From an uncultured Chloroflexia bacterium (lineage in GTDB: Bacteria; Chloroflexota; Dehalococcoidia; DSTF01; JALHUB01): a stretch of 29,662 nucleotides of DNA. The stretch lies in NCBI GenBank assembly GCA_963726245.1, contig CAVSBT010000032.1:1-29662 (forward strand). Reading direction: 5' to 3'. Below, piece by piece: positions 12,999 to 29,662 of the stretch (positions are counted from its first letter, which is position 1; each line of letters begins with the position of its first letter). The notes under the pieces were generated by a model that worked only from the letters and a program-made list of their open reading frames with translations, was not told the DNA's origin and did no database searches. The translations under genes were made by a program, and so were the position numbers.

Positions 12999-13023
12999 AC
13001 AAGTTTCTTGTGAGGTTCAAGGG

Positions 13024-14128: not shown

Positions 14129-14143
14129 CCCATCACTAGAGCC

Positions 14144-16120: not shown

Positions 16121-16125
16121 AGCTC

Positions 16126-16191
16126 CTCTGCTTCCACGGCAGAGGGTCGCGGGCCTGCCCGCCGGCAGGCAGGTTCGACTCCAGTTCTCCA
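16126..16191 (+). pseudogene. Possible tRNA 3'-half remnant interrupted by a 20-bp palindrome
   Basis: CTCTGC-TTCCACG-GCAGAG stem/7-nt loop, GGTC, GCGGG[CCTGCCCGCCGGCAGGCAGG]TTCGACTCC, ending TCTCCA; no 5' half. Confidence 0.4.
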
Positions 16192-16404
16192 AGAAATGAC
16201 AAAGAGATCGAGGCCCGGCTTCGCCGGGCCGAGTCTGTGCCTTCAGCCCTCCTTCAGGGGGAACGCTGACGTCGCGCGAGACGCCAGCGGTGGTAACATC
16301 TGTCCAGGCCGCCAGTGGGTGGTCAAGCGAACATCATCCAGTTAGCGGGTCGCTCACCCCTGCGTTTGTCCGCGCATCCGTGCAGCGTTGAGGAGGCATT
16401 GCCC

Positions 16405-18207
16405 ATGACCGCCCGAACTCTGTCGCCGTTTGACCCGAATTACAGGGAGGCGTTCAGGGAGACGCTGCTGACGGCAGACTCGCTCATTGAAGTCAACAGC
16501 AGGCCACAGATCGGCCTTGACGGTCTCTGGAGATTCCACATCGACCCTTACGATGTCCACAGAAGGCGGGCTGCGTCTGACCCGCATTACTTCGAGCTGT
16601 TGACCAAGCCGGAGGAGGAGGCACTGCTTAACCCGCAGGCCGATTTTCCGGCCGGCGCCTGGGAGACGATCAAGGTGCCGGGCTGCTGGAACGAGGAGCG
16701 GTCGGAATTGATGCACTACGAGGGCTGCGCTCTCTACCTGAGGGAGTTTGACGGCCCGGCCTCCGGCCCGCGCTATTTCCTCTATGTGGGGGCAGCCAGC
16801 TACGAGGCCACCCTCTGGCTAAACGGGGTCTTCATTGGCAGACACGAGGGTGGGTTCACCCCCTTTTGCATCGACGTTACGCCTCACTTGCAGCCCCGAA
16901 ACGTCCTGGCGATAGTCGTCGACAACCGGCGGGAGGCGGACCGGCTGCCGGCGCTCTGGTGCGATTGGTTCAACTACGGCGGCATCTTCCGCTCTGTGCG
17001 TCTCGTCGAAGTCCCGCGGTCTCACGTAAAGCGAACCTTTCTGCGTCTGCTGCCGGGCACAGGTTTCCGACGCCTGCGCCTGGATGTGGAGACGTCAGCC
17101 GCTGAGGGCGAGCAGGTAACTCTCACCGTGCCGGCTCTCCACGTAGCAGAGAGGACTCCCGTGGATGGGCAGGGCATGGCGTCGCTGGAGCTCACTGCCG
17201 AACCAAGGCTTTGGTCGCCGGAGGAACCGTATCTGTATGAGGTCGAGGTAGCGCTGGAAAGCGGTGACCGCCTGGAGGAAAGCGTGGGCTTTCGCGAAGT
17301 GAGGGTCGAGGGTGATAGGCTGCTTCTCAATGGGCAACCGATTTTTCTCCGCGGGATCTGCGCTCACGAGGAGTTCCCGGGGCGAGGACGCGCTGCGACG
17401 GAAGAGGACACACGCCAGATGCTGGAGGCAGCGCGTGACCTGGCCTGTAACTTCGTGCGGCTCGCTCACTATCCACACCACGAGAACACCGCCCGTCTTG
17501 CCGACAGGGCGGGGCTGTTTCTCTGGGAGGAAGTCCCCGTCTACTGGCATGTCGATTTCGCGAACCCTGCGGTGTTGGCCGGCGCCCGCAACCAGCTACG
17601 CGAGCTGGTTATTCGCGATAGGAACAGGGCCAGCGTCATAATCTGGTCGATAGCGAACGAGACGCTGACGACAAGTGAACGCTTGCCGTTCTTGGAGGAG
17701 CTCGCGGCCTGCGCCCGCCAGCTCGACTCGACTCGACTGGTTTCAGCCGCCCTCCTGCCACTGCCCGATGACCCGCTCCTGCCGCACATGGACGTAGTCG
17801 CTGTGAACGAGTACTTCGGCTGGTACTACGGCCAGGTGGAGCAAGTGCAAGATCTCCTCAAGAACCTGGCGTCCTGTGGCAAGCCCATGCTGGTCTCAGA
17901 GTTCGGGGCAGACTGCGTGGCGGGCCTTCACGGCGCGGTGGACGAGATCCGAACCGAGGAGTTCCAGGCCGACTTCTATCGCCGACAGTTCGCCACCATC
18001 CTCGGGTTTCCGTCCGTAATCGGCACGTCCCCTTGGGTCCTGTATGACTTCCGGACTCCTCTGCGCCAGAACAAGTATCAGCGGGGGTACAACCGAAAGG
18101 GACTGATAGGGGAAGACCATCAGTCCCGGAAGATGGCCTTTGAGACCGTGCGTAAGATCTATCAGGGTCTGGTGAGCCGCTTCAGCGAGAAGGATGGCCG
18201 GGGCTAG
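16405..18207 (+). CDS. Glycoside hydrolase family 2, beta-glucuronidase-like
   Basis: GAGGAGG RBS; VPGCWN, HEGGFTPF, DWFNYGGIFR, GICAHEE, NFVRLAHYPH, IWSIANE (acid/base), SEFGAD (nucleophile), YNRKG (N-x-K glucuronidase motif). Confidence 0.9.
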   Translation: MTARTLSPFDPNYREAFRETLLTADSLIEVNSRPQIGLDGLWRFHIDPYDVHRRRAASDPHYFELLTKPEEEALLNPQADFPAGAWETIKVPGCWNEERSELMHYEGCALYLREFDGPASGPRYFLYVGAASYEATLWLNGVFIGRHEGGFTPFCIDVTPHLQPRNVLAIVVDNRREADRLPALWCDWFNYGGIFRSVRLVEVPRSHVKRTFLRLLPGTGFRRLRLDVETSAAEGEQVTLTVPALHVAERTPVDGQGMASLELTAEPRLWSPEEPYLYEVEVALESGDRLEESVGFREVRVEGDRLLLNGQPIFLRGICAHEEFPGRGRAATEEDTRQMLEAARDLACNFVRLAHYPHHENTARLADRAGLFLWEEVPVYWHVDFANPAVLAGARNQLRELVIRDRNRASVIIWSIANETLTTSERLPFLEELAACARQLDSTRLVSAALLPLPDDPLLPHMDVVAVNEYFGWYYGQVEQVQDLLKNLASCGKPMLVSEFGADCVAGLHGAVDEIRTEEFQADFYRRQFATILGFPSVIGTSPWVLYDFRTPLRQNKYQRGYNRKGLIGEDHQSRKMAFETVRKIYQGLVSRFSEKDGRG

Positions 18208-18238
18208 CGGCGCCGCCCGGCTCGCATGGAGAGGTGTC

Positions 18239-18685
18239 TTGAGCATCGGGTTTTTCATCGACAAAGCGCGCCAGCCGACACCTGCAGAAGTGGGCGAGGT
18301 CTTAGGAGAGAAACTGCCCCTCTGGAATGATCTCGTTCGACTCCTCTCGGGTGGATATGGCGCCGAGGGCGAGTTCAGATTCTACGGCAGGCACTATGGA
18401 TGGGCACTGAGATTCCGAAAGTCCGGGCGGGCTCTCCTATCCATGTATCCAGGTAAAGGGTTCTTCACTGTTCAAATCGTTCTCAATCCGACTCAGGCCG
18501 AAGAGGCGATGAGACTCAGGCTTGGGCAAAGGGTCAGCGGAACACTGGAGACCGCCCGCGAATACCCTGAAGGGCGGTGGCTGTACATACGGGTAGCGTC
18601 AAACCGGGACGCCCAAGACATCCAGCATCTGTTGTCGCTCAAAGCCGGGCCAATGAAGCATCGTGCCCGCGGATCCCTGGGATGA
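18239..18685 (+). CDS. DUF3788-like protein
   Basis: GAGG RBS before TTG; FYGRHYGWALRFRKSGRALLSMYP...FTVQIVL...EGRWLYI pattern. Confidence 0.7.
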   Translation: MSIGFFIDKARQPTPAEVGEVLGEKLPLWNDLVRLLSGGYGAEGEFRFYGRHYGWALRFRKSGRALLSMYPGKGFFTVQIVLNPTQAEEAMRLRLGQRVSGTLETAREYPEGRWLYIRVASNRDAQDIQHLLSLKAGPMKHRARGSLG

Positions 18686-18717
18686 TGGCCTCGACCACAT
18701 GTGCAGAAAGACGAGCT

Positions 18718-19722
18718 TTAGGTGATCACCTCATCGCTAGCGAATCGCCTTTGAGCCCGTGTCAGTATCTCCTCCGCCTCTCTCATCATTCTCGCCAGCA
18801 GTTCTTCGCAGCTAACGATATCCTGAATCAGCCCGATAGACTGGCCGACGGGAAGCGGGCTGGAATCGACGTCACCGGTTTCCCAGGCGCTCCCCTGGCG
18901 CTCGCCCAAAATGAGAGGAATGATCTCCTCGAGGCCCCCTCCTCCGGCTTCCACTTCTAGCACCTTCTCGACCTGCGCGTTTCTCATAGCCCGCATCTGA
19001 AGGTTGACGGTCTTGCATATCATGACCGTGGCATTCTCCTGCCGCCGAACCAGTTCCTGCTTGATACGAGAGTGTGCAAGACACTCAGTCGTGGCTATGA
19101 ATCTGGAAGCCATCATCACGCCCTCTGCTCCCAGGACCATGGCAGCGGCCATTCCCCTTCCATCCGCGATGCCGCCCGCAGTCACAACCGGTATACTTAC
19201 TGACTGGCAGATCCTGGGTGTTAGGAGCATCGTCGTCACGTCTTCGTGCAGGGGGTGACCGCCTTCTTCGAAGCCGGCGGCAATCACTGCATCATAGCCG
19301 GCCTGCTCAGCGTGCAAGGCGTGCTTCACTGAGCCGACCTTGTGTATTAGTGTTATCCCTGCGTCTTTCGCTTGACGAATTGGATCAGGCCCCAGGTACC
19401 TGTCTAGAGGCGCACCTGACACGTCAATGGAATTGACCTTTTCTTCGCAGCAGACCCGAAAGTAATCCTGGTGCAGCTCCTTGCCAATTCGGACCGAGGG
19501 CAGAAAAGTCAAATTCACACAGAATGGCTTGTCGGTTAGTTGCCTGGTTCTGGCGATTGCTTCGCGTAGCTCATCTCCGGAGGCGTAGTTGCCCGCTGTT
19601 AAGTCACCCAATCCGCCTGCATTGGATACCGCGGCACAAAGCTCGGGCTTAGCCAGCCACATCATCGCTCCGCAGAGAATCGGATATCTAATGCCGAATA
19701 GCTCCGTAATCCTGGTGTTCAA
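18718..19722 (-). CDS. Nitronate monooxygenase / FabK-like FMN oxidoreductase
   Basis: TRITELFGIRYPI, AAVSNAGGLG, TDKPFCVN, GFEEGGH, TAGGIADGRG, GAEGVMMASRF, GQSIGLI. Confidence 0.9.
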   Translation of the reverse strand: MNTRITELFGIRYPILCGAMMWLAKPELCAAVSNAGGLGDLTAGNYASGDELREAIARTRQLTDKPFCVNLTFLPSVRIGKELHQDYFRVCCEEKVNSIDVSGAPLDRYLGPDPIRQAKDAGITLIHKVGSVKHALHAEQAGYDAVIAAGFEEGGHPLHEDVTTMLLTPRICQSVSIPVVTAGGIADGRGMAAAMVLGAEGVMMASRFIATTECLAHSRIKQELVRRQENATVMICKTVNLQMRAMRNAQVEKVLEVEAGGGGLEEIIPLILGERQGSAWETGDVDSSPLPVGQSIGLIQDIVSCEELLARMMREAEEILTRAQRRFASDEVIT

Positions 19723-19784
19723 CGGTCCCCTCCTTGTCGATACCCGCCGCCGTGTCGGCTTGAGCGTGTTCCCTTGGCATTTCG

Positions 19785-20300
19785 ATGGTCCCTGGAAAGA
19801 GCTCTTCTGATCAGGTCGGCGCTCTGGATAGCCTCCTGCGCTTCCCCACCGATACCCTGCGTGCGGCCTTCAAGCGCCTCAACTGGCTGATGGTCGGGAT
19901 GTTCCACCTTGGGCTGGGCCCTTACGTCAGCGACTCCTATACTGGCTACATCATGGTGCTTGCCACCACCGGCCGCAAGAGCGGCCTGCTGCGCTGTACG
20001 CCCGTCAACTTCGTCATGGGCGATGGCAAGGTCTGCTGCCTCTCCGGGTTCGGCCGCAGGTCTGATTGGTACGAGAGTATCCTCGCCGACCCCCAAGTAC
20101 AGGTCTGGATCGGAAGCGAGGGCTGGATGGGACACGCCGAGGTGATAGAGGACCCGGCGGGGGTGGCTGGCCCGCGCGAGCCCAGGGGACAACCTGAGGG
20201 CGAGGCTGCGGGTGCGGAGGGGCCGGCCTTCCTTGGGCGCATGGTGCCCCAAGTTGACAGCGGGTGTAGAATTGACGCAGTTATCTCGCCCAATGCGTGA
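19785..20300 (+). CDS. Deazaflavin (F420)-dependent nitroreductase-family protein (DUF385), C-terminus probably degenerate
   Basis: VLATTGRKSG..RCTPVN and SDWY..ILADPQV motifs; sequence after EDP is low-complexity and unlike the family. Confidence 0.65.
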   Translation: MVPGKSSSDQVGALDSLLRFPTDTLRAAFKRLNWLMVGMFHLGLGPYVSDSYTGYIMVLATTGRKSGLLRCTPVNFVMGDGKVCCLSGFGRRSDWYESILADPQVQVWIGSEGWMGHAEVIEDPAGVAGPREPRGQPEGEAAGAEGPAFLGRMVPQVDSGCRIDAVISPNA

Positions 20301-20309
20301 CGTGTCCTC

Positions 20310-21665
20310 ATGAGATTCCTCCTTCTGATTCCGCCTGTTGTTGCCCTTCTCTTTGTCGCGCTGGCGTGTGAGGAAGAAGGACCAGGGGCCACCTCAGCGC
20401 CTACTCCAGTGGGACTCCTGCTATGCCGTATTCGTTGATCTACTACGATGGCCACATACACACGACCCGGTCCGACGGCACGGGCTCGGTGGAAGACGTG
20501 AAGGCGACCGCACTTCGCCGCGGCCTCAGCCTGGTCATCATCACCGACCACTGCGGGGAATTGACGAGAGAGAAGTGGGAGTCGCTGGTTGCCGACACCG
20601 CTGCCGCGTCGGAGCCCGGCACCTTCCTCGCCCTGCCCGGCTTCGAGATCACGGGTAACGAGGGCATATTCAACCGCTCACACATGCTCGCCTTCAACGT
20701 TGCGGACCCCTTCGTCGGTGACGACGCCAACGAGCTCTGCCCTGAGGAGGTGTGGCCGGATCCGCCTAACCCGGCCGGCACCGGCCCCAGCAGTACCCGG
20801 AGAACCTGGCAAAGTGGGCCGACTACGTTCACTCCAACGGCGGAATCGCCGTGCACTGCCACACGTCAGGCTCCACCCTGCTCGCGATACGGCGTGGACA
20901 GCCATCGAGGTCTACAACCAGAGCCCATCGATGACATCTTTCGCTACGCGAAGCTGCTCGGCTTCTCGGACGAAGCAGGCGCTGGCGTTCGCGAAGACGC
21001 TGAACGACATTGGCCTCACCGGCGAGAGGGACCTGAACAAGCCGGTTGCTCTTGGGGGCCAGTCGGTGCCCCTGAGGGAGGCCGTCCACTCCGCCACCGA
21101 GATGCTGACCGGCGTCGGCCAGTGGCTGGGCGCGCCCGAGGCGCCCGTGAAGTCCTGGGACCAGCTTCTGATGGCCTACGTGGACGGCACCACCGACAAG
21201 CCCATCTTCGGCGTTGCCAACAGCGACGCCCACAACACCGCCGATCCCGACTCGACAGTGGGCGTGGCGAAGAACGGCCTCTACGTGAAGGCGCTGACCG
21301 CGGAGGAGGTCTACGCGGCCATCAAGGCAGGACGCAGCTTCGCCACCACCGGGCCGTCCCTCGCTTTCGACGTCAACGGGGAGCTTATGGGAGGTACCGC
21401 CCACATAGCCAGCGGCGGGTCGGCCAAGCTGAACCTAAGGGTGAGCTCCGAGAGCGCGACCGCCATACTGGTCAAGATAGACATCATCAAGAACGGCGAG
21501 CTCTGGCAGACGATCAGCCCCATGCAGCCTGTCTACGAAGACACCCTGGTCGATGACAGTGTGAGGGAAAACGGCTACTACCGTGTTGAGGTTACGTCGC
21601 AGGACCAGCCCAGCGGCCCCTACTACTATGCCTGGTCCAACCCAGTCTCCGTGAGCGCCCCCTAA
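20310..21665 (+). CDS. Secreted PHP-domain (CehA/McbA-like) lipoprotein, several frameshifts
   Basis: ATG 20310 gives MRFLLLIPPVVALLFVALA-C (lipobox), absent from the ORF track; then DGHIHTTRSDG, IITDH, GFEIT, HMLAF, IEVYN, ANSDAH, AIKAGRSFATTGP, AWSNPV. Confidence 0.75.
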
Positions 21666-21695
21666 GGATCCATAGAGGAAGACGACAGAGGAGCC

Positions 21696-21720
21696 ATAGC
21701 AGGGTGCTTGGCCCTGCTAT
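21696..21720. terminator. 9-bp hairpin ATAGCAGGG-N7-CCCTGCTAT between convergent genes
   Basis: Perfect inverted repeat 30 bp after the PHP stop; no clear U-tract. Confidence 0.35.
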
Positions 21721-21730
21721 ATGCTACTGC

Positions 21731-21790
21731 TATCCTTCGGTGCTCGCGAAGATGGCGGTCACTGTCAATCACATCAGCGGCGGTCGCCTT
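21731..21790 (+). pseudogene. Short remnant of an LLM-class flavin/F420-dependent oxidoreductase
   Basis: Translates YPSVLAKMAVTVNHISGGRL, matching the luciferase-like family motif P..LAKMA.T.D.ISGGRL; no flanking gene body. Confidence 0.6.
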
Positions 21791-21854
21791 GGAGCGGCGT
21801 CGCAATCTCCACCGGCACGCGCGCCGGCCGCCGTTCAGTCTATCGCGAGCTAGG

Positions 21855-22803
21855 TCACATCTCTAAGGAAGCTGACGAGCCTGCGTTGACCTCTTCCGGG
21901 CGCTCTTGCTGCGTCCAGTGGCCGCAACCGGGGAGCATCACGACGCCTCGCAGGTTGGGCACGTTAGCCTGCATCGCCTCTATGCTCGTGAACCCACGCA
22001 CGGTGTCGCGGTCGCCCGCGATGAACAGCGCCGGCTGCTGAACCTTGGCGCCGGCCAGATGCGGCAGCTCCTCCCAGTCGCGGTCCATGTTGCGGTAGCG
22101 GTTGAGCCCGCCCCGAAAGCCGGTGCGCGTGAACTCGGCAACAAGGTAGTCTAGGTCCTCCTGCTCGAGCCATGGCGGCAGCTCTTCCGGCTCCGGCATC
22201 CCATCGAGGAATCCTGCGTCCGCTCGCCTTCTGTGACAGCCCGAGACCAGCGGGTGCGTCGCCCGAGGCTCCATACAGCACGAGGCGCAGCGTTCTGCGG
22301 ACATCCGCCTGGAGTTCCGCTTCGGCGACGCCGGGCTCTTGAAAGTACAGCATGTAGAAGAACCTGCCGGCGAACATCTGCTCCAAGAGCTGGAGCGGCG
22401 GTATCGGCGGGCGCGGTACGTAGGGGACGCTGAGCGCCACGATGGCTGGAAAGCGGTCGGGATAGAGGAGCGCGCAGTGCCAGGCGATAGGAGAGCCCCA
22501 ATCGTGGCCGACAATCACGGCCGTTTTCTCGCCGAGCGCGTCAAGCACGCCGACGGCGTCCGCCGTCATGTTCAGCATGCTGTAGGCCTCGATTTTCTCG
22601 GGCGCGTCGGTGCGGCCGTAGCCGCGAAGGTCCGGCGCAACAGCATGGTATCCAGCGGCCGCGAGCGCAGGAAGCTGGTGGCGCCAGGAGTACCACAGCT
22701 CCGGAAACCCATGAAGCAGCAGCACCAGCGGACCGTCCCCGGCCTCCGCGATGTGCACGTTGATGCCGTTGGCCTGTATCGCTCGGTGAGTGATGTTTGA
22801 CAC
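21855..22803 (-). CDS. Epoxide hydrolase (alpha/beta hydrolase, EphA-like), frameshift near 22230
   Basis: LLHGFPE, APDLRGYG, GHDWG (Asp nucleophile), FYMLYFQ, GGLNRYRN, CGHWTQQE. Confidence 0.9.
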
Positions 22804-22844
22804 GGCGCCTTCCTAGCTGTTGAGCGACCTGTTGGCCAGAGAGA

Positions 22845-23264
22845 TTAGCTGGCGCGCCGTCTCTTCGCCACAGGCTGCCGGCCGCTGCCCACCCGCTCGC
22901 GGATGAACTCACCGATCCGGTCAACGGCCTGCTGCCCTTCCGGCAATACCGAGGCGAAGATGTGCCAGACGTGGATCATGTCCTCCCACGGCTCCAAGGC
23001 AACATCCACGCCGGCGCACCTGGCGCGCTCGGCGAGGCGGGTTGAGTCATCGAGGAGCGTCTCCGCAGTGCCGACGTGGATCAGCAGTGGGGGGAGCCCC
23101 GTCAGGTCTGCGTACATCGGCGCCGCAAGAGGCGTGCGGGCGTTCGCACCACCCAGGTAGGCCTTTGCCATCTCGAGCAGGCCCTCCCGTTCTATTAGCG
23201 GGTCGACCTCCGCCTTTGCCGTCATGGACTCTCCTATTCCCTCCAGGTCTACCCATGGGGAGAG
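22845..23264 (-). pseudogene. C-terminal half of an HSL-family esterase/lipase, 5'-truncated
   Basis: LSPWVDLE...GLPPLLIHVGTAETLLDD...MIHVW; the frame hits TAG at 23288-23286 just upstream, with no HGG or GDSAG half. Confidence 0.8.
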
Positions 23265-24229
23265 ATCCAGAGGTACTGAAAGATCCTATATTCAAAGACA
23301 AAATGAAAGAAAGGAGTGCGAAAGCAAGAAATAGAGATGAATATATAGAAATGGTCATAAGTGAAAAAGACTTCTGGCTAAGCATGGACAGAAAATATCC
23401 AATCGGCAACAACATCATTTACTATGAAAATGCTCTTGGCGCAAAGCCATTCATTTTTGTCTTATCTCTCACGCCAAGATTATTCACAGGGTTTCCAGTT
23501 GAGCAAGCTACGGCAATCGCCCAAATGGGCGTTGTCCCGTATCTCAATGCAAGCCCTGGGTTTTACTTTTCGGCGAATACCGGATTTGGCGTCGATGAGA
23601 TTGCACAAGGTAGACGTGACAGTTTTATCAGAGAATTTGCTCTAAGCACTGCAACGTTTGGAAAGGAAAACGGAGGTTTCTTCTTTACAACAATGATCGA
23701 GTCTAATGGAAGGTGGTTTTACTGGGGGCAAGACCCCAACTTCATTCCGGCGTGGAGGCACATCTGGCAGATATTCGAAGATGAAGGAGTAAACCAATAT
23801 GCCACCTGGGTCTGGGAGGCATATTGCCCTGAAGGGGTACCAGGCTATGGGGATGATCCTGAATTATACTATCCGGGGGATAAGTACGTTGATTGGATAG
23901 GTCTCAATGCTTTCTCGGCAGTAAAAAAACCAAAAACAGATTATGCGCTTGATGTATTGATACACAGGACCTACAGACGCTTGCTTGACAAACACCCACA
24001 AAAGCCAATTATGCTATCAGAGTTTGGGAGAACAAATCGATCTGATCAAGCAGCCTGGTTGCAAAATGCTTACAGAGGCATAAAAAAGGATTTCCCGGCG
24101 ATTAAGGCCGCCACCTGTTATGACAATGCTACACCTGAGTGGTTCACAGGCGACCATACATTAAACCCGAAGAGCTTGGAAACGCTTAAAGAAATCTTCA
24201 AAGACCCGTATTGGGTAATGGGAAAATGA
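23255..24229 (+). CDS. Cassette 1: glycoside hydrolase family 26-like protein (probably 5'-truncated)
   Basis: IESNGRWFYWG, FIPAWRHIWQIF, TWVW, YYPGDKYVDWIG, KPIMLSEFG; AT-rich; the start is uncertain (ATG 23255 or 23303). Confidence 0.75.
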   Translation: MGRDPEVLKDPIFKDKMKERSAKARNRDEYIEMVISEKDFWLSMDRKYPIGNNIIYYENALGAKPFIFVLSLTPRLFTGFPVEQATAIAQMGVVPYLNASPGFYFSANTGFGVDEIAQGRRDSFIREFALSTATFGKENGGFFFTTMIESNGRWFYWGQDPNFIPAWRHIWQIFEDEGVNQYATWVWEAYCPEGVPGYGDDPELYYPGDKYVDWIGLNAFSAVKKPKTDYALDVLIHRTYRRLLDKHPQKPIMLSEFGRTNRSDQAAWLQNAYRGIKKDFPAIKAATCYDNATPEWFTGDHTLNPKSLETLKEIFKDPYWVMGK

Positions 24230-24233
24230 CAAG

Positions 24234-24297
24234 ACATAACAAGCGGCTCCACCGGATCGCCGATAAACCCGGCTCCCGGTGAGCCTTAGCGTTAGGC
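24234..24297 (+). other. attC site 1 (64 bp)
   Basis: R'' ACATAAC, L'' GCTCCACC, L' GGTGAGC, R' GTTAGGC. Confidence 0.92.
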
Positions 24298-24338
24298 CGT
24301 GACCGAATCTATTCACACCCGTAAGGAGATTTTCTGCA

Positions 24339-25085
24339 ATGGACATTCCACGGATCTTCAACATCACCGAAAGTGCTCACCGCATCCATAACCCATTCAC
24401 ACCCGAAAAGCTCGCCACTCTCGGCGCGGCGCTGCGTCTGGAAACGGGGACCCGAGTGCTCGACCTCGGCAGCGGTTCGGGGGAGATGCTGTGCACCTGG
24501 GCACGCGATTACGGAGTCATCGGCACCGGCATCGACATGAGCCAGTTGTTCACCGAGCAAGCGAAACTCCGCGCTGAAGAACTCGGCGTCGCCGATCAAG
24601 TCAAGTTCATCCATGGCGATGCTGCCGGCTACGTCTCTGACGAGAAGGTCGGTGTGGCAGCCTGTCTCGGTGCCACGTGGATCGCTGGGGGAGTCGTCGG
24701 CACCATCGAGCTTCTGGCGCAGAGCCTCCGCACCGGAGGGATCATCCTCATCGGCGAGCCCTACTGGCGGCAGTTACCGCCGACGGAAGATGTTGCCAAG
24801 GGGTGTCTTGCCGGCTCAATCTCCGACTTTCTCATGCTTCCAGAACTTCTCGCGTCTTTCGGCCACCTCGACTACGACGTCGTGGAAATGGTTTTGGCAG
24901 ACCAAGACGGCTGGGACAGATACGAGGCGGCCAAGTGGCTCACCATGCGCCGATGGCTTGAAGCCAATCCCGACGACGAGTTCGCGAAAGATGTTCGAGC
25001 CAAACTGACCTCGGAACCCGAGCGCTACGCCACTTACACGCGTGAATACCTGGGCTGGGGTGTGTTCGCGCTGATGACGCGGTGA
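24339..25085 (+). CDS. yjhP: Cassette 2: class I SAM-dependent methyltransferase, YjhP-like
   Basis: 248 aa, MDIPRIF...HRIHNPFT, VLDLGSGSGEMLCTWARD, GEPYWRQLP, DRYEAAKWLTMRRWLEANPDD; closely resembles E. coli YjhP as recalled; AAGGAG RBS. Confidence 0.88.
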   Translation: MDIPRIFNITESAHRIHNPFTPEKLATLGAALRLETGTRVLDLGSGSGEMLCTWARDYGVIGTGIDMSQLFTEQAKLRAEELGVADQVKFIHGDAAGYVSDEKVGVAACLGATWIAGGVVGTIELLAQSLRTGGIILIGEPYWRQLPPTEDVAKGCLAGSISDFLMLPELLASFGHLDYDVVEMVLADQDGWDRYEAAKWLTMRRWLEANPDDEFAKDVRAKLTSEPERYATYTREYLGWGVFALMTR

Positions 25086-25222
25086 TGCGTTGGGGCATCC
25101 GGCGGATTGTCAACGGCTGTGCCGCGCAACAGCTGGTGGCTCGCCGAGATGTGATTGCGCCTGAATTCATTTCTTATGGTCTAGTTATCCGTGCAATCAA
25201 CAGAAAGCTCTGTCTCAAGCAG

Positions 25223-25282
25223 GCCTAACAATTCATTCAAGCCGACGCCGCTTCGCGGCGCGGCTTAATTCAGGCGTTAGCC
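25223..25282 (+). other. attC site 2 (60 bp, aadA/aadB-type)
   Basis: GCCTAACAATTCATTCAAGCCGACGCCGCTTCGCGGCGCGGCTTAATTCAGGCGTTAGCC. Confidence 0.97.
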
Positions 25283-25303
25283 CAAAATGAGAGGAGATAA
25301 AAA

Positions 25304-25597
25304 ATGGAATGTATTATCATTATTCATCCACCAAAGGTACGGTACACCGAGAACTTTGAGACCGTTGAATACGTAAAATGCGTATCCAATCTATCAAAAT
25401 TACAAAAGCAGCATACAAACTGGAAATTGTTAGCAGAAAACACTCTGATGCTAACAGGAGTCGACGTATTAGGTATGCTTCAGGATGTGGTTGAAATCCT
25501 CCCGGAAGGGACGATCTATACTTACACAATATTGAACGAACAACCTCAATGGATTGATAAGGAAAAAGTAATACTCGATAAAAAAATCTTGGCCTAA
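25304..25597 (+). CDS. Cassette 3: hypothetical protein (97 aa)
   Basis: GAGGAG RBS; the ORF fills the space between attC2 and attC3; no recognisable motif. Confidence 0.7.
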   Translation: MECIIIIHPPKVRYTENFETVEYVKCVSNLSKLQKQHTNWKLLAENTLMLTGVDVLGMLQDVVEILPEGTIYTYTILNEQPQWIDKEKVILDKKILA

Positions 25598-25627
25598 CAC
25601 ACATAATCACCTCCATAAATTAAGATG

Positions 25628-25691
25628 GGCTAACAAATCATTGGAGTTGACGGTCAACAAACCTGACCGCAACTCAATTCAGTCGTTGGGG
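25628..25691 (+). other. attC site 3 (64 bp)
   Basis: R'' GGCTAAC, stem TTG(G)AGTTG(A)CGGTCA / TGACCGCAACTCAA, R' GTTGGGG. Confidence 0.92.
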
Positions 25692-25697
25692 GTAGGT

Positions 25698-26171
25698 ATG
25701 AACGTAAAAGGGAATATCATAAAAGCAAATATCACAATGCCAGCAATCGAGATCAAACCTCCTTCTCCGTCACTAAGTTTTTTAACGGCAGCTCGATACT
25801 TCTTCCCAGGAGTTAGGACATTATCCCAGGGAGATCCAACTGTTGCGATTGCATGTACATTTCTTGCTGCACAGACTCTCGAATGTGCCTTGAAAGCATA
25901 TTTGTCCAATGCAGGCGTTCCCATAAAAGAACTGAAAAACAAGAAGAGTTACGGCCATAATCTTGAGGCATTATGGGTAGGGGCAGCAACCAAGGGATTA
26001 GCAGTACAACCGCAGCCACCAGATTGGTGCGTTATTCTCAATCAAACCCATGATGATCCATATTATCTTCGCTATCCGATAGGAATTAACGGTTTCCAAT
26101 ATCCAGCCTTCTCCGTGATGGTGCCAGAGCTAAGTAAACTCATCGACCTAGTAGGATCTATCGTAAGGTGA
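25698..26171 (+). CDS. Cassette 4: HEPN-domain-like protein (157 aa)
   Basis: FLAAQTLECALKAYL...GHNLEAL...LRYP matches the HEPN pattern (E..LKA, H.L..L, RY); the true start is ATG 25698, after attC3. Confidence 0.65.
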   Translation: MNVKGNIIKANITMPAIEIKPPSPSLSFLTAARYFFPGVRTLSQGDPTVAIACTFLAAQTLECALKAYLSNAGVPIKELKNKKSYGHNLEALWVGAATKGLAVQPQPPDWCVILNQTHDDPYYLRYPIGINGFQYPAFSVMVPELSKLIDLVGSIVR

Positions 26172-26191
26172 GTAAATTCATGAAAAAGGTA

Positions 26192-26279
26192 CCCCAACAA
26201 CCGGCTTGACCTGACCGCGAGAAGCGAGGTTATCTGAAGGTCACCGCCTTGTCGCGTCAGGTCAGCCGGAACGTTATCT
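26192..26279 (+). other. attC site 4 (88 bp)
   Basis: R'' CCCCAAC, stem CGGCT(T)GACCTGAC(C)GCGA / TCGCGTCAGGTCAGCCG, R' GTTATCT. Confidence 0.92.
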
Positions 26280-26313
26280 GCCATAGCCCAAAATGGGCAG
26301 AAAGGAGATTGAC

Positions 26314-27065
26314 ATGAAAAGCACAACGGAAATCACTAAGCTTCCTCGGAAGTTCGCATGGGGATCGGTCGTGCTCGGGTTAACACTCTCGTTGGCATTT
26401 TACTCCGCTCCGGCCCTGGCCTACGAACCATTTCTGATCACTTCTCCACCTGAGGGTTCCGCTATCCCTCAGGAATTCCTTTTACGATCTTGTGGACAGG
26501 AGGAGACCCATCGTGGAATGTCAAAGTCGCGCTGGTTGACGTAGATCAATGGAGTGTCGTTGCCGTTCCAGCTACGAACATGCAGAATAGTGGGAGTCTC
26601 ATCTGGGAGTTCCCGTCGAGCTTTTACGGCAACCCCGGCCCGTGTGGGCGCACATACCAATTCTACGTGGAGAGCCTCAATCAACCGGCTTGGACGTATG
26701 GCCCACACTTCCTGGTTGTTTGCGAGATCCCAATTGCCATGAGCATTGAGCCCGGCAGCTTCCCGAACAGCATTAACCCTAGAAGCAGGGTGATCCCGGT
26801 GGCCATCCTGACAACCGATACCTTCGATGCAACCTCCGTCGACACTTCCACCGTTTTCTTTGGCCCAACTGGGATTGAAGCGGCTCCGGTGCATGCGGCC
26901 ATAGAGGATGTCAATGGAGATGGTAGACCCGATATGATCCTTCACTTCAAGACCCAGGCCACGGGCATCCAATGTGGGGACACATCCGCCTTCCTCACGG
27001 GACAGACCTTTAGCAGGCAGCCGATCGAGGGGTCTAATTCTATCAATACGGTCGGATGCAAGTAA
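26314..27065 (+). CDS. Cassette 5: secreted protein (~250 aa, frameshift near 26475) with a C-terminal DVNGDG Ca-binding-motif domain
   Basis: AAGGAG RBS; signal peptide ending APALA; ITSP...WTGG beta-rich domain; IEPGSFPNSINP..VIPVAILTT...EDVNGDGRPDMILHFKTQ. Confidence 0.7.
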
Positions 27066-27100
27066 CGAGGTTACCATAACACCATGGAATTGACGATGGC

Positions 27101-27162
27101 AGATAGCAACCACTTCGAGAGGGACGCCTAAAAAACGGCGCCCTTCAAGCGAAGCGTTATGA
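27101..27162 (+). other. attC site 5 (62 bp; R'' is AGATAGC instead of AGATAAC)
   Basis: ATGGCAGATAGC is the inverse of the cassette's core GTTATCTGCCAT with one mismatch; stem GGG(A)CGCC / GGCGCCC; R' GTTATGA. Confidence 0.8.
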
Positions 27163-27178
27163 GAGAAATAAAGACAAT

Positions 27179-27490
27179 ATGAAATCAATTTGGTCCAAAA
27201 GTCTGGCTGTTGCGGCCTTAGCACTAATTGTGGGTGGGGCTGCACTTCTAAACATCTATCCCTATCGACCCCGGTCAACAATTGGCTGGTGCCTGTTGTT
27301 CATCCTGGCTCTCCCCCTCTGGTTTTTCTTTGAATTTGTCGGGGAACGTTTCACTGCTTCGAGATTTATCGCCAGTCTCAGTCCAGCCGCAAGAATTACC
27401 TTTGGTGTCTTGATTGTTGGTGGATTTGTGCTGCTCACACTTGTGGCTTTCAGTTTTCTGGAGCCCTTTATCAGTAAATGGAGTTCATAA
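27179..27490 (+). CDS. Cassette 6: small membrane protein (103 aa, ~3 TM)
   Basis: Three hydrophobic stretches; the TAA stop lies inside R'' of attC6. Confidence 0.8.
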   Translation: MKSIWSKSLAVAALALIVGGAALLNIYPYRPRSTIGWCLLFILALPLWFFFEFVGERFTASRFIASLSPAARITFGVLIVGGFVLLTLVAFSFLEPFISKWSS

Positions 27491-27547
27491 CAAGTCGGTG
27501 CACCGGATCGCCGATAAATCCGGCTCCCGGTGACCTTTTCGTTGGAC
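27485..27547 (+). other. attC site 6 (63 bp, same family as attC1)
   Basis: R'' TCATAAC, L'' GGTGCACC, L' GGTGACC, R' GTTGGAC. Confidence 0.92.
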
Positions 27548-27556
27548 GGAGGAAAT

Positions 27557-28102
27557 ATGAACATGACCAAACGTGATATCGCAGACATCGTCCTGGTGTG
27601 GATGGCGGTTTCATTCATCCTTGCACTTCTCACCAGCATCCTGACACTCGGCTCAATCATCGGAATGCCTGACGAGCAATCGAAGTTCATGACGACATCT
27701 GTTGCCCTCGTATTCCAGGTCCTTCATCTTCTAGTCGTTGCGTTCTTGATTTATATCCTACTGTTCAAGCGCAACCTCGTGCTGAATATCGTCTTCCCAG
27801 ACGCAGAGGGAAAGGAGCTGTCAGTCTCGGATGGCCTGACAGCTCTTACGTCCTACGTATTCTGGATCCGTCTTCTCGGCATCTTCACCCTGTTGTCTTC
27901 AGGAATAGGGTTCTTCGCCGATCTCGTAAGCGGATTGGCCATGAACAGACAATTTGTGATCGATTCGTTCTGGAAGGTAAAAACGTTCCCGCACATTGTC
28001 TCTGCAATCCTCGCATTCGTTGTCATCTGGAAAGCAGACTGGATCGCGAACAGACTGGAAAGAATAGGATCGTCCAACAAACCGGATGCAGACGACGGCT
28101 GA
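27557..28102 (+). CDS. Cassette 7: membrane protein (181 aa, ~4 TM)
   Basis: GGAGG RBS before ATG 27557; four hydrophobic segments; the ORF reads into attC7. Confidence 0.8.
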   Translation: MNMTKRDIADIVLVWMAVSFILALLTSILTLGSIIGMPDEQSKFMTTSVALVFQVLHLLVVAFLIYILLFKRNLVLNIVFPDAEGKELSVSDGLTALTSYVFWIRLLGIFTLLSSGIGFFADLVSGLAMNRQFVIDSFWKVKTFPHIVSAILAFVVIWKADWIANRLERIGSSNKPDADDG

Positions 28103-28130
28103 TAGCCGCGCCTGATCCGCAACGTTATAA
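28072..28130 (+). other. attC site 7 (59 bp)
   Basis: R'' GTCCAAC, stem CGGAT(G)CAG / CTGATCCG, apical CGGCT...AGCCG, R' GTTATAA. Confidence 0.88.
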
Positions 28131-28138
28131 GCAAGAAA

Positions 28139-28546
28139 ATGAAAAATACAAACTTCAAGATCATATTCGTTGGCTTGCTTCTCGCGCTGGGCAGTTTTTA
28201 TTTGATCACCTTTATACATACCCTGCTTGATCTGTTGACACAAATTAGGCTCAAGAAACCTTTAAATGCATATCTTTTGTGGGGTTATTCCCCCATGATC
28301 GTATCAGGGATATATATTGGTTTTTCAGGAGTAAGGGAAAAGGTACTTAATGGTGCGCTTGTCGGTGCACTATTTTATTTCATTTTATGGTTGATAAGCG
28401 ATGTCTTGATACCAGCTCCACATTTTGATCATTCATTTAAACCCTTATCTTTTGGCCTTGGACTTGTGCGCAATGGATTTGTATGCTCTATCGTTGCATG
28501 GCTAACCTATACCGTTTTTAAAAAAAGAAGACGGGAAGTCAGGTAA
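28139..28546 (+). CDS. Cassette 8: membrane protein (135 aa, ~4 TM)
   Basis: Four hydrophobic segments with Gly-rich motifs (SGIYIG, NGALVGAL) and a basic C-terminal tail. Confidence 0.8.
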   Translation: MKNTNFKIIFVGLLLALGSFYLITFIHTLLDLLTQIRLKKPLNAYLLWGYSPMIVSGIYIGFSGVREKVLNGALVGALFYFILWLISDVLIPAPHFDHSFKPLSFGLGLVRNGFVCSIVAWLTYTVFKKRRREVR

Positions 28547-28558
28547 GAACACATCATC

Positions 28559-28648
28559 TTATAACAAAACAATCAACCCGACGCGGAACAAGCCTCGTTT
28601 GGTTTTATCATAATTGGTTGGCCGCGCGGGTTATTCTTATCGTTATGT
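28559..28648 (+). other. attC site 8 (90 bp)
   Basis: R'' TTATAAC, L'' AATCAACC, CCG(A)CGCGG / CCGCGCGG, L' GGTTATT, R' GTTATGT. Confidence 0.92.
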
Positions 28649-28679
28649 GAAATAAAAGAAGTAAAATGAGGAGAACCAT

Positions 28680-29008
28680 ATGGCTAATTTTGCCCATTTC
28701 TTTTCTCTTTACGCGGCCTGGGTTTCAATTCCCTGCTTAGCAATAATCAGCATTATGTTTTGCATAAAACAAAGCACTAAAGAAAGCCTGATATTTGCCT
28801 CAGGAATAGTGCTCATAGCGATCGGATCATTGATTCAGATCTTTTCTCCCTTCGGAAGAATTACAATGGATGAAGCGGGAAGACTATTGTCATCTTCGGG
28901 ACCACCTTAATTTGGTACGCCGGAAGTATTATTACGTCTATTGGCCTTATTGTTACAATGGTTGGGTTTGCAACAGTTACTTGGAAAATAAAAAGAAAAG
29001 CCACATAA
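28680..29008 (+). CDS. Cassette 9: small membrane protein (~109 aa, frameshift near 28905)
   Basis: GAGGAG RBS; ORF 28680 continues after a one-base shift as LIWYAGSIITSIGLIVTMVGFATVTWKIKRKAT*, with the stop inside R''. Confidence 0.7.
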
Positions 29009-29093
29009 CCAATCAATCAAGGCGATGGGGAATAAACCTGTGCGGTTTTTTGCAAGGGCCGGTTGCCCCCGCGCCTTATTTCAATCGTTAGAC
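29003..29093 (+). other. attC site 9 (91 bp)
   Basis: R'' ACATAAC, L'' AATCAAGG, GGCG..GGGG / CCCC.CGCC, L' CCTTATT, R' GTTAGAC. Confidence 0.9.
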
Positions 29094-29103
29094 CCAGAAG
29101 AAT

Positions 29104-29414
29104 ATGAAAGAATTAATAAATAAGGGGATAGGTTGGTTACTTTATGTATTAATTTGTAATCGTGTGCTCTTCCTCATAGCCGGTGGCGTAGGTTTCTTAT
29201 CAGGGGTGCAGAACTCAACATTTTTGTCGAGGCAATTATACTTTTAGTGATAATTGCTATATCATTTTTTTTGGCCATTCAAATAAATAAAAGGATTACT
29301 GCGGTTCTAGAAACATTACCATTTACAATTCGGCTTGTCTTGACTGTATGTGCTTTATTATCGCTTATTGTTACTTTGCCTCTGCTCATAAATGCGTTAC
29401 CTGATAGAATTTAA
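29104..29414 (+). CDS. Cassette 10: small membrane protein (~103 aa, frameshift near 29215; absent from the ORF track)
   Basis: MKELINKGIGWLLYVLICNRVLFLIAGGVGFLSG joined to FVEAIILLVIIAISFFLAIQINKR...LLINALPDRI*. Confidence 0.65.
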
Positions 29415-29419
29415 GAAAG

Positions 29420-29508
29420 GTCTAACCGTATCAACCTGACCGCGGAATAGCCGCGTCAGATTTTTTTACAACGGTGATTGCCGCCGCAGGTTATACAGAT
29501 CGTTAGGC
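29420..29508 (+). other. attC site 10 (89 bp, short R''-L'' spacer)
   Basis: R'' GTCTAAC, L'' TATCAACC, L' GGTTATA, R' GTTAGGC. Confidence 0.85.
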
Positions 29509-29514
29509 AAGACT

Positions 29515-29662
29515 ATGAAAATAAACCGATTCAGTATTTTTCTGGCGATCATGGTTTGCAGTCTCGTGAGCGCTGGCTGTCGAGACGTAATAACGTACTC
29601 CTTCTCGCCTTCGCCGGATGGCAGCGTCATGGCCTCAATTAAAAGCGTAAAATAAGGGCCTT
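29515..29662 (+). CDS. Cassette 11: putative lipoprotein, incomplete at the window edge
   Basis: MKINRFSIFLAIMVCSLVSAG-C signal peptide with lipobox; in-frame TAA at 29653-29655 may be real or a frameshift artefact. Confidence 0.55.

What the first reader, a model, noticed from the sequence alone, without database searches (positions are those of the whole stretch)
23255..29662. Integrase-less integron cassette array with 10 attC sites and mostly unknown genes
Seen: ten palindromic attC sites (59-91 bp), each separating one plus-strand ORF. In all nine complete cassettes the left core is complementary to the right inverse core, often beyond 7 bp: GTTAGGCC/GGCCTAAC, GTTAGCCCA/TGGGCTAAC, GTTGGGG/CCCCAAC, GTTATCTGCCAT/ATGGCAGATAGC (one mismatch), GTTATGA/TCATAAC, GTTGGACG/CGTCCAAC, GTTATAAG/CTTATAAC, GTTATGTG/CACATAAC and GTTAGACC/GGTCTAAC. 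Established: this is the signature of cassettes inserted as circles by an IntI integrase. No intI, attI or Pc lies upstream, and the array runs off the right edge. Inference: a CALIN or decapitated integron carrying a pool of uncharacterised mobile genes, attached to a high-GC backbone of very different composition.
Basis: partly seen in the sequence, partly recalled or inferred. Interest (0 to 1): 0.88.

Follow-up and report, generated by a model that had tools for sequence, protein, structure and literature searches.

The report
Beheaded integron cassette array in Dehalococcoidia
The last 6.4 kb of this contig is a genuine string of at least ten mobile integron gene cassettes with no integrase, cut off at its head and fused to a broken gene of a high-GC Dehalococcoidia genome; this is a well-known kind of element, and the join itself still needs read-level proof.

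Summary
Ten attC sites lie at 24234-29508, all on the + strand. Their stems covary: 92.9% of cells are paired against 68.4% in shuffles (0/500). A covariance model trained on five sites finds the other five with exact ends and nothing else in the window. Each cassette's left core is complementary to its own inverse core (0/100000 permutations).

The integrase-less reading holds for the DNA in hand:
- The window has no intI or intI remnant.
- The 2.68 Mb, 82.8%-complete MAG has no intI above the TIGR02249 cut-off.

The array's head is not an attI. It is a sharp breakpoint at 23264. To the left, homology to a same-genus genome ends inside an Abhydrolase_3 gene. To the right, cassette 1 begins inside a GH26-like gene, whose 99%-identical copy elsewhere keeps its N-terminus.

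The backbone is Dehalococcoidia at 66% GC. The cassettes are 38-59% GC and recur, in other orders, in freshwater-sediment contigs.

Verdict: a decapitated CALIN, a new member of a known kind. An assembly chimera at 23264 is not excluded (about 25%).

The parts
22845..23264 (-). 3' remnant of a backbone Abhydrolase_3 (esterase/lipase) gene. The ORF is 22845-23225 and homology runs on to 23264. About 175 N-terminal residues are missing, judged against the full-length G001 gene.
   Evidence: Pfam PF07859 matches profile positions 126-209 of 210 only. Same-genus genome G001 aligns at 89% over 21850-23264 and carries the full-length gene. The missing half is not found anywhere in G000.
23264..23264 (.). 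Breakpoint between backbone and array, with 1 nt of ambiguity. It is not an attI or attC crossover.
   Evidence: G001 homology ends at 23264. In 4 of 4 runs laid, contigs carrying cassette 1 match only from 23264 rightwards and carry other letters before it. The 99%-identical protein P0055 diverges from the window immediately before the residue encoded at 23264-23266.
23264..24291 (+). Cassette 1, truncated at its 5' end. It holds a GH26-like gene remnant (to the stop at 24229) that lacks its Tat-signal/lipobox N-terminus.
   Evidence: Pfam GH26 at 28.2 bits, cut-off 20.2. Homologues are about 385-400 aa and carry RREFLK...GC N-termini. Full cassettes are 1321-1329 nt in L114 and L125, against 1028 nt here.
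24234..24297 (+). attC 1
   Evidence: R1 74.6 bits. R2, from which it was held out, 42.3 bits.
24339..25085 (+). Cassette 2 (24292-25276): class I SAM-dependent methyltransferase, followed by a 135-nt non-coding tail.
   Evidence: Pfam Methyltransf_31, _25 and _11 above their cut-offs. It has the highest contig depth in the sediment runs.
25223..25282 (+). attC 2
   Evidence: R1 56.6 bits.
25304..25597 (+). Cassette 3 (25277-25685): 97-aa protein of unknown family.
   Evidence: No Pfam, NCBIfam or PADLOC match.
25628..25691 (+). attC 3
   Evidence: R1 69.1 bits. R2, held out, 39.3 bits.
25698..26171 (+). Cassette 4 (25686-26273): 157-aa all-helical protein, possibly a divergent HEPN fold.
   Evidence: AlphaFold2 pLDDT 89.2 with six helices. 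Atlas feature hits at 0.95 include a 'putative HEPN' cluster. 4 of 36 family members hit PF05168 weakly. Foldseek finds nothing at E<=0.001.
26192..26279 (+). attC 4
   Evidence: R1 51.8 bits.
26293..27065 (+). Cassette 5 (26274-27156): secreted protein gene split by one frameshift near 26470-26490.
   Evidence: ORFs 26293-26544 and 26490-27065 overlap in different frames. No family match.
27101..27162 (+). attC 5, with its inverse core degenerate (AGC in place of AAC).
   Evidence: R1 49.0 bits; alignment.
27179..27490 (+). Cassette 6 (27157-27541): 103-aa membrane protein.
   Evidence: ORF list. No family above cut-off.
27485..27547 (+). attC 6, the same sequence type as attC 1.
   Evidence: R1 63.5 bits. 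R2, held out, 20.5 bits. This type is highly repeated in the sediment runs.
27557..28102 (+). Cassette 7 (27542-28124): 181-aa membrane protein.
   Evidence: ORF list. No family.
28072..28130 (+). attC 7
   Evidence: R1 56.0 bits. R2, held out, 35.8 bits.
28139..28546 (+). Cassette 8 (28125-28642): 135-aa membrane protein.
   Evidence: Only sub-threshold DUF3792 and TIGR04086 matches.
28559..28648 (+). attC 8
   Evidence: R1 65.7 bits.
28680..29008 (+). Cassette 9 (28643-29087): small membrane protein gene with a 1-nt deletion at 28906-28908. The right end given here is approximate.
   Evidence: The ORF stops at 28910. Contigs of X1 and X12 carry one extra T after 28906, which keeps the frame open.
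29003..29093 (+). attC 9
   Evidence: R1 64.5 bits. R2, held out, 58 bits.
29104..29414 (+). Cassette 10 (29088-29502): two short overlapping ORFs (47 and 55 aa), or one frameshifted gene.
   Evidence: ORF list.
29420..29508 (+). attC 10
   Evidence: R1 56.5 bits.
29503..29662 (+). Cassette 11, cut by the contig end. It holds a 46-aa ORF with a lipoprotein-like start (29515-29655).
   Evidence: ORF list. The window is the whole contig.

Best explanation
This is a real integron gene-cassette array: ten complete attC sites, nine complete cassettes, a truncated first cassette and a last one cut by the contig end. It has lost its platform (intI, attI, Pc). As assembled, it sits in the chromosome of a high-GC Dehalococcoidia bacterium, so it is a CALIN of the 'decapitated' type.

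Origin. The cassettes were built and ordered by IntI-mediated attC x attI/attC recombination in some integron. That is shown by each cassette's left core matching its own inverse core. The head of the array was then removed by a non-site-specific event, either a deletion or an illegitimate join. That event fused the middle of cassette 1's GH26-like gene to the middle of a backbone esterase gene.

Consequences, which are inferred rather than shown:
- There is no Pc and the upstream gene points the other way, so the cassettes are mostly silent unless they carry their own promoters.
- Cassette 1 is dead.
- The remaining cassettes keep intact attC sites, so they could still be excised and captured by an integrase supplied in trans.
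- The element therefore acts as a passive reservoir of foreign, mostly small membrane or secreted genes of unknown function.
For: The attC sites are real:
- Covariation and slide controls, and RNAalifold compensatory pairs.
- Bottom-strand bulges.
- Held-out cross-validation, 5 of 5 sites found.
- No other hit in the 2.68 Mb genome.
- The same model hits sites beside bona fide intI genes of two genomes of the same order: L095 at 387-512 and 887-1012, divergent from intI, and L096 at 3188-3251.

Integrase-made cassettes: the core/inverse-core permutation test gives 0/100000.

Cassettes are mobile units:
- Relatives of the GH26 gene are followed 8 nt later by an attC hit in 10 of 44 metagenome loci. 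15 of the 44 loci have at least one hit.
- L127 carries the methyltransferase cassette end plus attC2 (94.8% identity) followed by a GH26-like cassette, the opposite order to the window.
- Contig joints 24287->27153, 24282->27501 and 24246->29004 show other cassette orders.
- One locus, L144, has an intI homologue 2.3 kb upstream of a GH26 homologue.

No platform.

Breakpoint at 23264 inside both genes.

The backbone belongs to the MAG's lineage:
- The GH4 protein's best match (89% identity) is to an uncultured Dehalococcoidia MAG.
- Window 3300-14060 and 21850-23264 align at 88-94% with same-genus G001.
- A REP-like repeat is shared with other G000 contigs.

No shared stretch longer than 1 nt exists at the join. 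A de Bruijn-graph chimera would need one (inference).
Against: - The join is not seen in independent data. The contigs of the four runs laid carry cassette 1 at about 99% identity but continue leftwards into other sequence, and they carry only 90-95% relatives of the backbone.
- The assembly is indel-prone. The essential rpoB gene reads through three frames within about 400 nt. That is compatible with a long-read assembly, in which a chimeric read could create an overlap-free join at a contig end.
- The array lies at the contig end, differs from the host by 7-28 GC points, and has no counterpart elsewhere in the bin.
- The bin has 6.3% estimated contamination.
- No intI over the cut-off was found in 17 genomes of the same family, and only one single attC-like hit. 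The lineage is therefore not a habitual integron host.
Confidence: 0.66

Rival explanations
1. Assembly or binning chimera. The array is genuine integron DNA from another, lower-GC member of the community. It was joined to the Dehalococcoidia contig only in silico, for example through a chimeric long read at a contig end. The organism would then have no cassette array.
For: - Both genes at the join are cut at an arbitrary point with no microhomology, which is also what a chimeric read would give.
- The MAG has clustered indel errors in rpoB and 6.3% contamination.
- Near-identical cassette 1 occurs in other samples where the backbone is only 90-95% identical.
- Source names of GH26 homologues point to Deltaproteobacteria and Syntrophales MAGs.
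- There is a large GC gap.
Against: - There is no shared k-mer at the join, so a short-read graph chimera is unlikely.
- The array region is clean against short-read contigs of other samples: 2-3 substitutions and no gaps over 23264-24246. It is not raw single-read sequence.
- The flank just left of the join is itself a variable region. Synteny with G001 breaks at 21850 and 14.1-21.8 kb has no counterpart there. Real rearrangements are expected in such a region.
- CALINs are about as common as complete integrons in complete genomes: 2961 against 2760 (PMC9024848, passages read).
Confidence: 0.25
2. Split integron. The genome still has a working intI/attI elsewhere, in the roughly 17% of the genome not recovered. 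A rearrangement merely separated this block of cassettes, which stay exchangeable with the parent integron.
For: - The MAG is 82.8% complete.
- Cury et al. list this route and found half of CALINs in replicons encoding IntI (PMC4889954, passages read).
- Draft genomes inflate CALIN counts (PMC9024848).
Against: - No TIGR02249 match over the cut-off in the 2.68 Mb recovered.
- None in 17 genomes of the family, and 2 of 93 in the order.
- No second attC cluster in the bin.
Confidence: 0.07
3. Cassettes were inserted one by one, or as a block, by an integrase at a secondary genomic site (attG-type insertion), so that the array was never attached to an attI here.
For: Integrase-mediated insertion outside att sites has been shown experimentally (bioRxiv 10.1101/2022.09.11.507474, abstract and outline only).
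Against: Such an insertion would leave a complete first cassette bounded at the G|TT crossover. Here the left boundary lies inside the cassette's ORF, about 300 nt short of its start. No GTT core lies at the join.
Confidence: 0.02

Closest known systems
[quoted passage not shown] 2016, PMC4889954)
   Same: - At least 2 attC sites in one orientation, spaced less than 4 kb apart, with no intI nearby.
- Cargo unrelated to resistance cassettes and mostly of unknown function.
- Size within the known range. The paper reports 6.6% of CALINs with more than 10 sites.
   Different: - The origin of the head can be read at base resolution: a truncated first cassette fused to a truncated host gene, with both parental sequences identified. 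The paper found no nearby intI pseudogene for 95% of CALINs.
- The host is an uncultured Dehalococcoidia MAG, so the arrangement rests on an assembly.
Complete chromosomal integrons of the same order (G058 contig C230 and G022 contig C85)
   Same: - The attC architecture is recognised by the same covariance model.
- The cassettes are arranged beside intI.
   Different: - Those elements have intI at 459-468 bits and attC sites of 70-73% GC, matching their hosts.
- The window's sites are 42-61% GC and score far higher against each other, 49-75 bits against 25-28 bits. The window's cassettes therefore do not look native to this lineage.
Mobile integrons of classes 1-5
   Same: A short array of heterogeneous attC sites (mean column identity 52%), with cassettes of mixed composition.
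   Different: - No intI, attI or Pc.
- No resistance gene recognised.
- No transposon or plasmid context was seen in the 23 kb upstream. I did not search specifically for transposon ends.
Sedentary chromosomal integrons (Vibrio and Xanthomonas type)
   Same: Chromosomal location, and mostly small unknown or membrane proteins.
   Different: - Those have homogeneous attC sites and host-like composition, and Cury et al. required more than 19 sites or species-wide conservation.
- Here the sites are heterogeneous, the composition is foreign, and the same-genus genome G001 has no attC hit.

Membership tests
Integron attC recombination site | Imperfect palindrome R''-L''...L'-R' with conserved AAC/GTT ends and paired L boxes. 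| tested here: met
   AAC/GTT pairs are kept in 10, 9(+1 G-U) and 10 of 10 sites. The 14-pair inner helix is 91.4% paired, with 10 pairs changed on both sides.
Integron attC recombination site | Strand asymmetry: extrahelical bases on the folded bottom strand.
   Bulges lie on the 3' arm of the bottom-strand folds. Column 17 gives bottom-strand G in 6 of 10 sites and column 24 gives bottom-strand T in 9 of 10. Model scores are more than 30 bits higher on the + strand than on the - strand.
Integron attC recombination site | Recognised by IntegronFinder's attC covariance model. | not testable with these tools
   That model is not available here, and Rfam has no hit in the window. As substitutes I used self-built models with held-out validation and hits beside true intI genes.
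Integron gene cassette | The cassette's first bases (after G|TT) are complementary to the inverse core of its own attC, the trace of a circular intermediate. | tested here: met
   8 of 9 cassettes show 7-9 contiguous nt, and the ninth shows 12 nt with one mismatch. 0 of 100000 permutations reach this.
Integron gene cassette | Excision and integration by an IntI integrase. | not testable with these tools
   This needs an in vivo recombination assay. Indirect support: the same cassettes occur in other orders and contexts.
CALIN | At least two attC sites clustered, with gaps under 4 kb. | tested here: met
   Ten sites, with a largest spacing of about 1 kb.
CALIN | No intI or intI pseudogene nearby. 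| tested here: met
   tblastn best E is 0.12 across the 29.7 kb window. TIGR02249 finds no match on contig C32. The downstream side is unknown because the contig ends.
CALIN | The arrangement exists in the organism's genome. | tested here: inconclusive
   The contigs of the four public runs laid carry cassette 1 in other contexts. Source reads are not available.
Complete integron | intI with the IntI-specific domain, adjacent attI, and a Pc promoter. | tested here: not met
   No intI. The left end is a breakpoint inside a gene. Promoter-like sites number 7, against 8.6 expected by chance.
HEPN superfamily (cassette 4 protein only) | Four-helix core with an Rx4-6H catalytic motif (definition recalled, not read here). 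| tested here: inconclusive
   The confident model is all-helical. Foldseek's top hit is a HEPN toxin, but at E 0.97 and TM 0.37-0.42. 4 of 36 relatives match PF05168 at best E 2e-4. I saw no Rx4-6H among the invariant columns.

The most novel reading that the evidence does not exclude
A Dehalococcoidia lineage with no integrase of its own took up a ready-made block of ten or more foreign cassettes in one illegitimate recombination event. The block came from an integron circulating in freshwater-sediment communities, possibly of Desulfobacterota/Syntrophales type. Both parental sequences are still recognisable at a 1-nt junction. That would be a caught-in-the-act example of cross-phylum, integrase-independent transfer of a whole array, and of how a CALIN is born.
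Probability: 0.3. Interest if true: 0.45.

Novelty: new member of a known kind. Interest (0 to 1): 0.3.

Why it matters
CALINs are about as frequent as complete integrons, yet how most of them arise is unknown. Cury et al. found no nearby intI remnant for 95% of them.

Here the head of the array can be read to the base, if the join is real. A near-identical intact copy of cassette 1 exists elsewhere, and an intact copy of the host gene exists in a sister genome. The event can therefore be reconstructed as a non-site-specific truncation, not an integrase-mediated insertion.

It also places integron cargo in a family of uncultured Dehalococcoidia in which none of 17 sampled genomes has an integrase. 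That bears on how far cassette pools leak beyond integron-bearing hosts.

The cargo itself gives a small set of candidates for function screens: a recurrent Tat-lipoprotein GH26-like cassette, a very abundant SAM-methyltransferase cassette, a possible divergent HEPN protein and several tiny membrane proteins.

None of this changes what is known about integrons. It is a clean, well-delimited example.

Tried and rejected
Rfam (gathering thresholds) found nothing in the window. I take this to mean that Rfam holds no attC family (my assumption), so it is not evidence against the sites.

Read support for the join. I laid four freshwater-sediment runs (X1, X2, X3, X12) on 20000-29662. No listed contig bridges 23264, and several bins (for example 26460-27105) have no cover. 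These runs hold only 90-95% relatives of the backbone, so the gap proves nothing.

Cassette decay. I first read the frameshifts in cassettes 5 and 9 (and perhaps 10), and in the backbone epoxide-hydrolase-like gene (extra base near 22221), as pseudogenisation of a dead array. I dropped this. The essential rpoB gene of the same MAG shows three frameshifts within about 400 nt, so indel errors of the assembly explain them at least as well. Four large backbone genes in the window are intact, so the error rate is patchy.

Secondary-site (attG) insertion is rejected because cassette 1 is truncated inside its ORF.

Promoter scan: 7 sigma-70-like sites against 8.6 expected. No Pc candidate.

tRNA or tmRNA integration site: none in the window.

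Cassette 4 as HEPN remains only a lead. The profile search of PDB sequences gave only chance-level NifU rows.

The viral-contig scan with an 18-nt core shared by attC1 and attC6 gave one contig, L160. Model R1 does not recognise a site on it at E<=0.1. Not followed further.

Literature. No paper in the library holds 'integron', 'Dehalococcoidia' and 'gene cassette' together. Integrons in Chloroflexi/Chloroflexota are already reported (PMC4889954 and PMC8618304, passages read). Supplementary tables of these papers, which may list such genomes, were not seen.

Full report
WHAT THE WINDOW IS

The window is the whole of contig C32 of a metagenome-assembled genome: 2.68 Mb in 46 contigs, 82.8% complete, 6.3% contaminated. 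All contigs are 62-70% GC.

GC is 58-73% up to about 23.2 kb and falls to 39-56% after that. By script, the backbone 1-23263 is 66.1% GC and the eleven cassette intervals are 37.6-59.0%.

THE attC SITES ARE REAL

Reading the sequence and folding each candidate gives ten sites of 59-91 nt:
- 24234-24297
- 25223-25282
- 25628-25691
- 26192-26279
- 27104-27162
- 27485-27547
- 28072-28130
- 28559-28648
- 29003-29093
- 29420-29508

All have the AAC...GTT ends on the + strand. In bottom-strand folds, the single-base bulges fall on the 3' arm.

On the MAFFT alignment, RNAalifold predicts 16 pairs, 9 of them with compensatory changes. For a 17-pair structure that I specified:
- 92.9% of 170 cells pair, against 68.4 +/- 2.6% in shuffles (0 of 500).
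- Only 31-44% pair when the partners are slid by 1-3 columns.
- 10 pairs change on both sides.

Model R1, built from all ten sites, matches only those ten in the entire genome at E<=1. That result is circular for the ten themselves but shows specificity.

Model R2 was trained on sites 2, 4, 5, 8 and 10. It recovers all five held-out sites with exact ends (58, 42.3, 39.3, 35.8 and 20.5 bits). It finds nothing else in the window with filters off. The same sites score only 13-19 bits on the minus strand.

R1 also hits sites beside two bona fide integron integrases in genomes of the same order. That is an external positive control.

THE CASSETTES CARRY THE MARK OF INTEGRASE-MADE CIRCLES

In 8 of 9 complete cassettes, the bases after G|TT at the left end are complementary over 7-9 contiguous nt to the inverse core of the cassette's own attC. 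The mean is 7.3 nt against 3.9 nt for all other pairings, and 0 of 100000 permutations reach the observed sum. Cassette 5 fits as 12 nt with one mismatch, because its inverse core reads AGC instead of AAC.

NO PLATFORM

TIGR02249 (integron integrase, cut-off 265 bits) scores at most 74 bits in the MAG. Those matches lie on three generic tyrosine recombinase genes on other contigs.

tblastn with the IntI proteins of G058 and G022 finds nothing in the window (best E 0.12). In the rest of the genome it finds only the same three recombinases, at 31-34% identity apart from a short 49-83-residue local match of 40-63% on C46. Promoter-like sites are at chance level.

THE HEAD OF THE ARRAY IS A BREAKPOINT AT 23264

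To the left lies ORF 22845-23225 on the minus strand. It matches only positions 126-209 of the 210-position Abhydrolase_3 profile.

The same-genus genome G001 aligns at 89% over 21850-23264 and then diverges. G001 continues with the N-terminal half of a full-length esterase carrying HGGG and GDSAG motifs (motif names recalled). The missing half is found nowhere in G000.

To the right, the evidence for the truncation is:
- In 4 of 4 runs laid, contigs carrying cassette 1 at about 99% identity match only from 23264 onwards and have 43-148 other letters before that point.
- Protein P0055, 99% identical, continues upstream with 39 further residues, including the conserved motif ...VYPPLPYHKIHPPKEGCLVGFYS. 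The window replaces this with backbone-derived codons.
- Eleven homologues examined have Tat-type RREFLK signals and a lipobox cysteine, in open frames of 351-433 aa.
- Complete cassettes in L114 and L125 measure 1321-1329 nt, against 1028 nt here.

Both genes at the join are therefore cut mid-ORF, with at most 1 nt shared. That excludes an attI or attG-type crossover and points to deletion or illegitimate recombination, or to a chimeric assembly.

THE CASSETTES ARE MOBILE UNITS IN SEDIMENT COMMUNITIES

Of 44 metagenome loci encoding relatives of the GH26-like protein, 15 have at least one R1 hit at E<=0.01. In 10 of them a hit begins 8 nt after the gene match, the same spacing as in the window.

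Other orders and contexts:
- L127 carries the end of the methyltransferase cassette with attC2 (94.8% identity) followed by a GH26-like cassette, the reverse of the window's order.
- Contig joints in X2 and X12 link attC1 to the start of cassette 6 or to attC6/attC9.
- The attC1/attC6 sequence type reaches summed depths of 220-580, with many loose ends at its borders.
- One locus, L144, has an intI homologue (41-46% identity to the Dehalococcoidia IntIs) 2.3 kb upstream of a GH26 homologue, but only one weak attC hit.

HOST AND FREQUENCY

- The backbone GH4 protein is 89% identical to one in an uncultured Dehalococcoidia MAG, and the next matches are Dehalococcoidia and Chloroflexota.
- Window 3300-14060 and 21850-23264 are syntenic with G001 at 88-94%. 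The stretch 14.1-21.8 kb has no counterpart there, so the join lies in a variable region.
- IntI over the cut-off is found in 0 of 17 family genomes, 2 of 93 genomes of the order (G000 included) and 9 of 401 sampled genomes of the class.
- attC-like hits at E<=0.001 occur in 7 of 92 other genomes of the order, mostly as singletons. G082 has 7 and G022 has 3.
- The intI-linked sites of G058 and G022 are 70-73% GC and score 25-28 bits against R1. The window's sites are 42-61% GC. The window's cassettes therefore do not look native to this lineage.

CARGO

- Pfam: GH26 (28.2 bits, cut-off 20.2) for cassette 1 and SAM methyltransferase families for cassette 2. Nothing is above cut-off for the others.
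- NCBIfam: nothing above cut-off.
- PADLOC: only a methyltransferase-domain match to mad2.
- Cassette 4 belongs to a family of 54 mostly metagenomic proteins. It folds confidently as a six-helix protein (pLDDT 89.2). The HEPN leads are weak.
- Cassettes 6-11 encode small membrane or lipoprotein-like peptides.

QUALITY CAVEAT

rpoB in this MAG reads through three frames within about 400 nt. The frameshifts in cassettes 5 and 9 and in the backbone hydrolase near 22221 may therefore be consensus errors rather than decay.

For cassette 9, related contigs in X1 and X12 carry one more T after 28906, and that keeps the frame open.

The same indel-proneness is compatible with a long-read assembly, where an overlap-free chimera is possible. 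Against a raw-read artefact, 23264-24246 differs from short-read contigs of other samples by only 2-3 substitutions and no gaps.

COMPARISON WITH WHAT IS KNOWN

The element meets the published definition of a CALIN. Its size, 10 sites or more, is at the upper end but within range. Integrons are already reported in Chloroflexi/Chloroflexota (PMC4889954, PMC8618304 and PMC9024848; passages read).

The routes proposed for CALIN formation include intI loss and rearrangement. The anatomy here fits those and not secondary-site insertion (bioRxiv 10.1101/2022.09.11.507474, abstract only).

VERDICT

- The array is real (about 0.97).
- It lacks an integrase in cis; this is shown for the contig.
- It is most likely a decapitated CALIN in a Dehalococcoidia chromosome (0.66).
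- An assembly chimera is the main rival (0.25).
- It is a new member of a known kind and of modest interest.

Noticed in passing
G000 contig C37:114100-114480 (not in the window): The essential rpoB gene reads through three successive frames within about 400 nt, with homology kept in each frame. This points to clustered indel errors in the MAG consensus, so any single frameshift in this genome should be distrusted.
   Followed up: yes
window 21855-22803 (-): An epoxide-hydrolase-like alpha/beta hydrolase gene is split into two overlapping frames. Relatives' contigs and G001 lack one base near 22220-22221. It may be a pseudogene or an assembly error.
   Followed up: partly
window about 9720-9830: An intergenic palindromic (REP- or MITE-like) repeat of about 110 nt. 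Partial copies lie on at least six other G000 contigs (C1, C7, C15, C16, C27, C39), and four copies at 86-90% identity lie in same-genus G001.
   Followed up: partly
window 25086-25222: A 135-nt non-coding tail follows the methyltransferase ORF inside cassette 2. It contains a 10-nt stretch complementary to the L' arm of attC2 (25158-25167 with 25267-25276). In run X2, one contig replaces 128 nt of this tail with 37 other letters.
   Followed up: no
L095 (G058:C230) and L096 (G022:C85): Two genomes of the same order carry bona fide integron integrases (468 and 459 bits) with high-GC attC-like sites. In G058 the sites are divergent from intI. In G022 the site lies downstream of intI on the same strand.
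   Followed up: partly
L144:4169-9602: A metagenome contig has an intI homologue followed by four same-strand genes, the third a GH26-like homologue, before the first detectable attC. It is either an unusually large multi-gene cassette or has attC sites of a type that my model misses.
   Followed up: partly
window 24292-25276 (cassette 2): The SAM-methyltransferase cassette is by far the most abundant piece of the array in the four sediment runs, with summed contig depths of 48-560 and many sequence variants.
   Followed up: no
window 14100-21800: This backbone stretch (GFO/IDH/MocA oxidoreductase, GH2, nitronate monooxygenase and others) has no counterpart in same-genus G001, apart from one 73% match. 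It looks like a strain-specific region directly upstream of the array.
   Followed up: no
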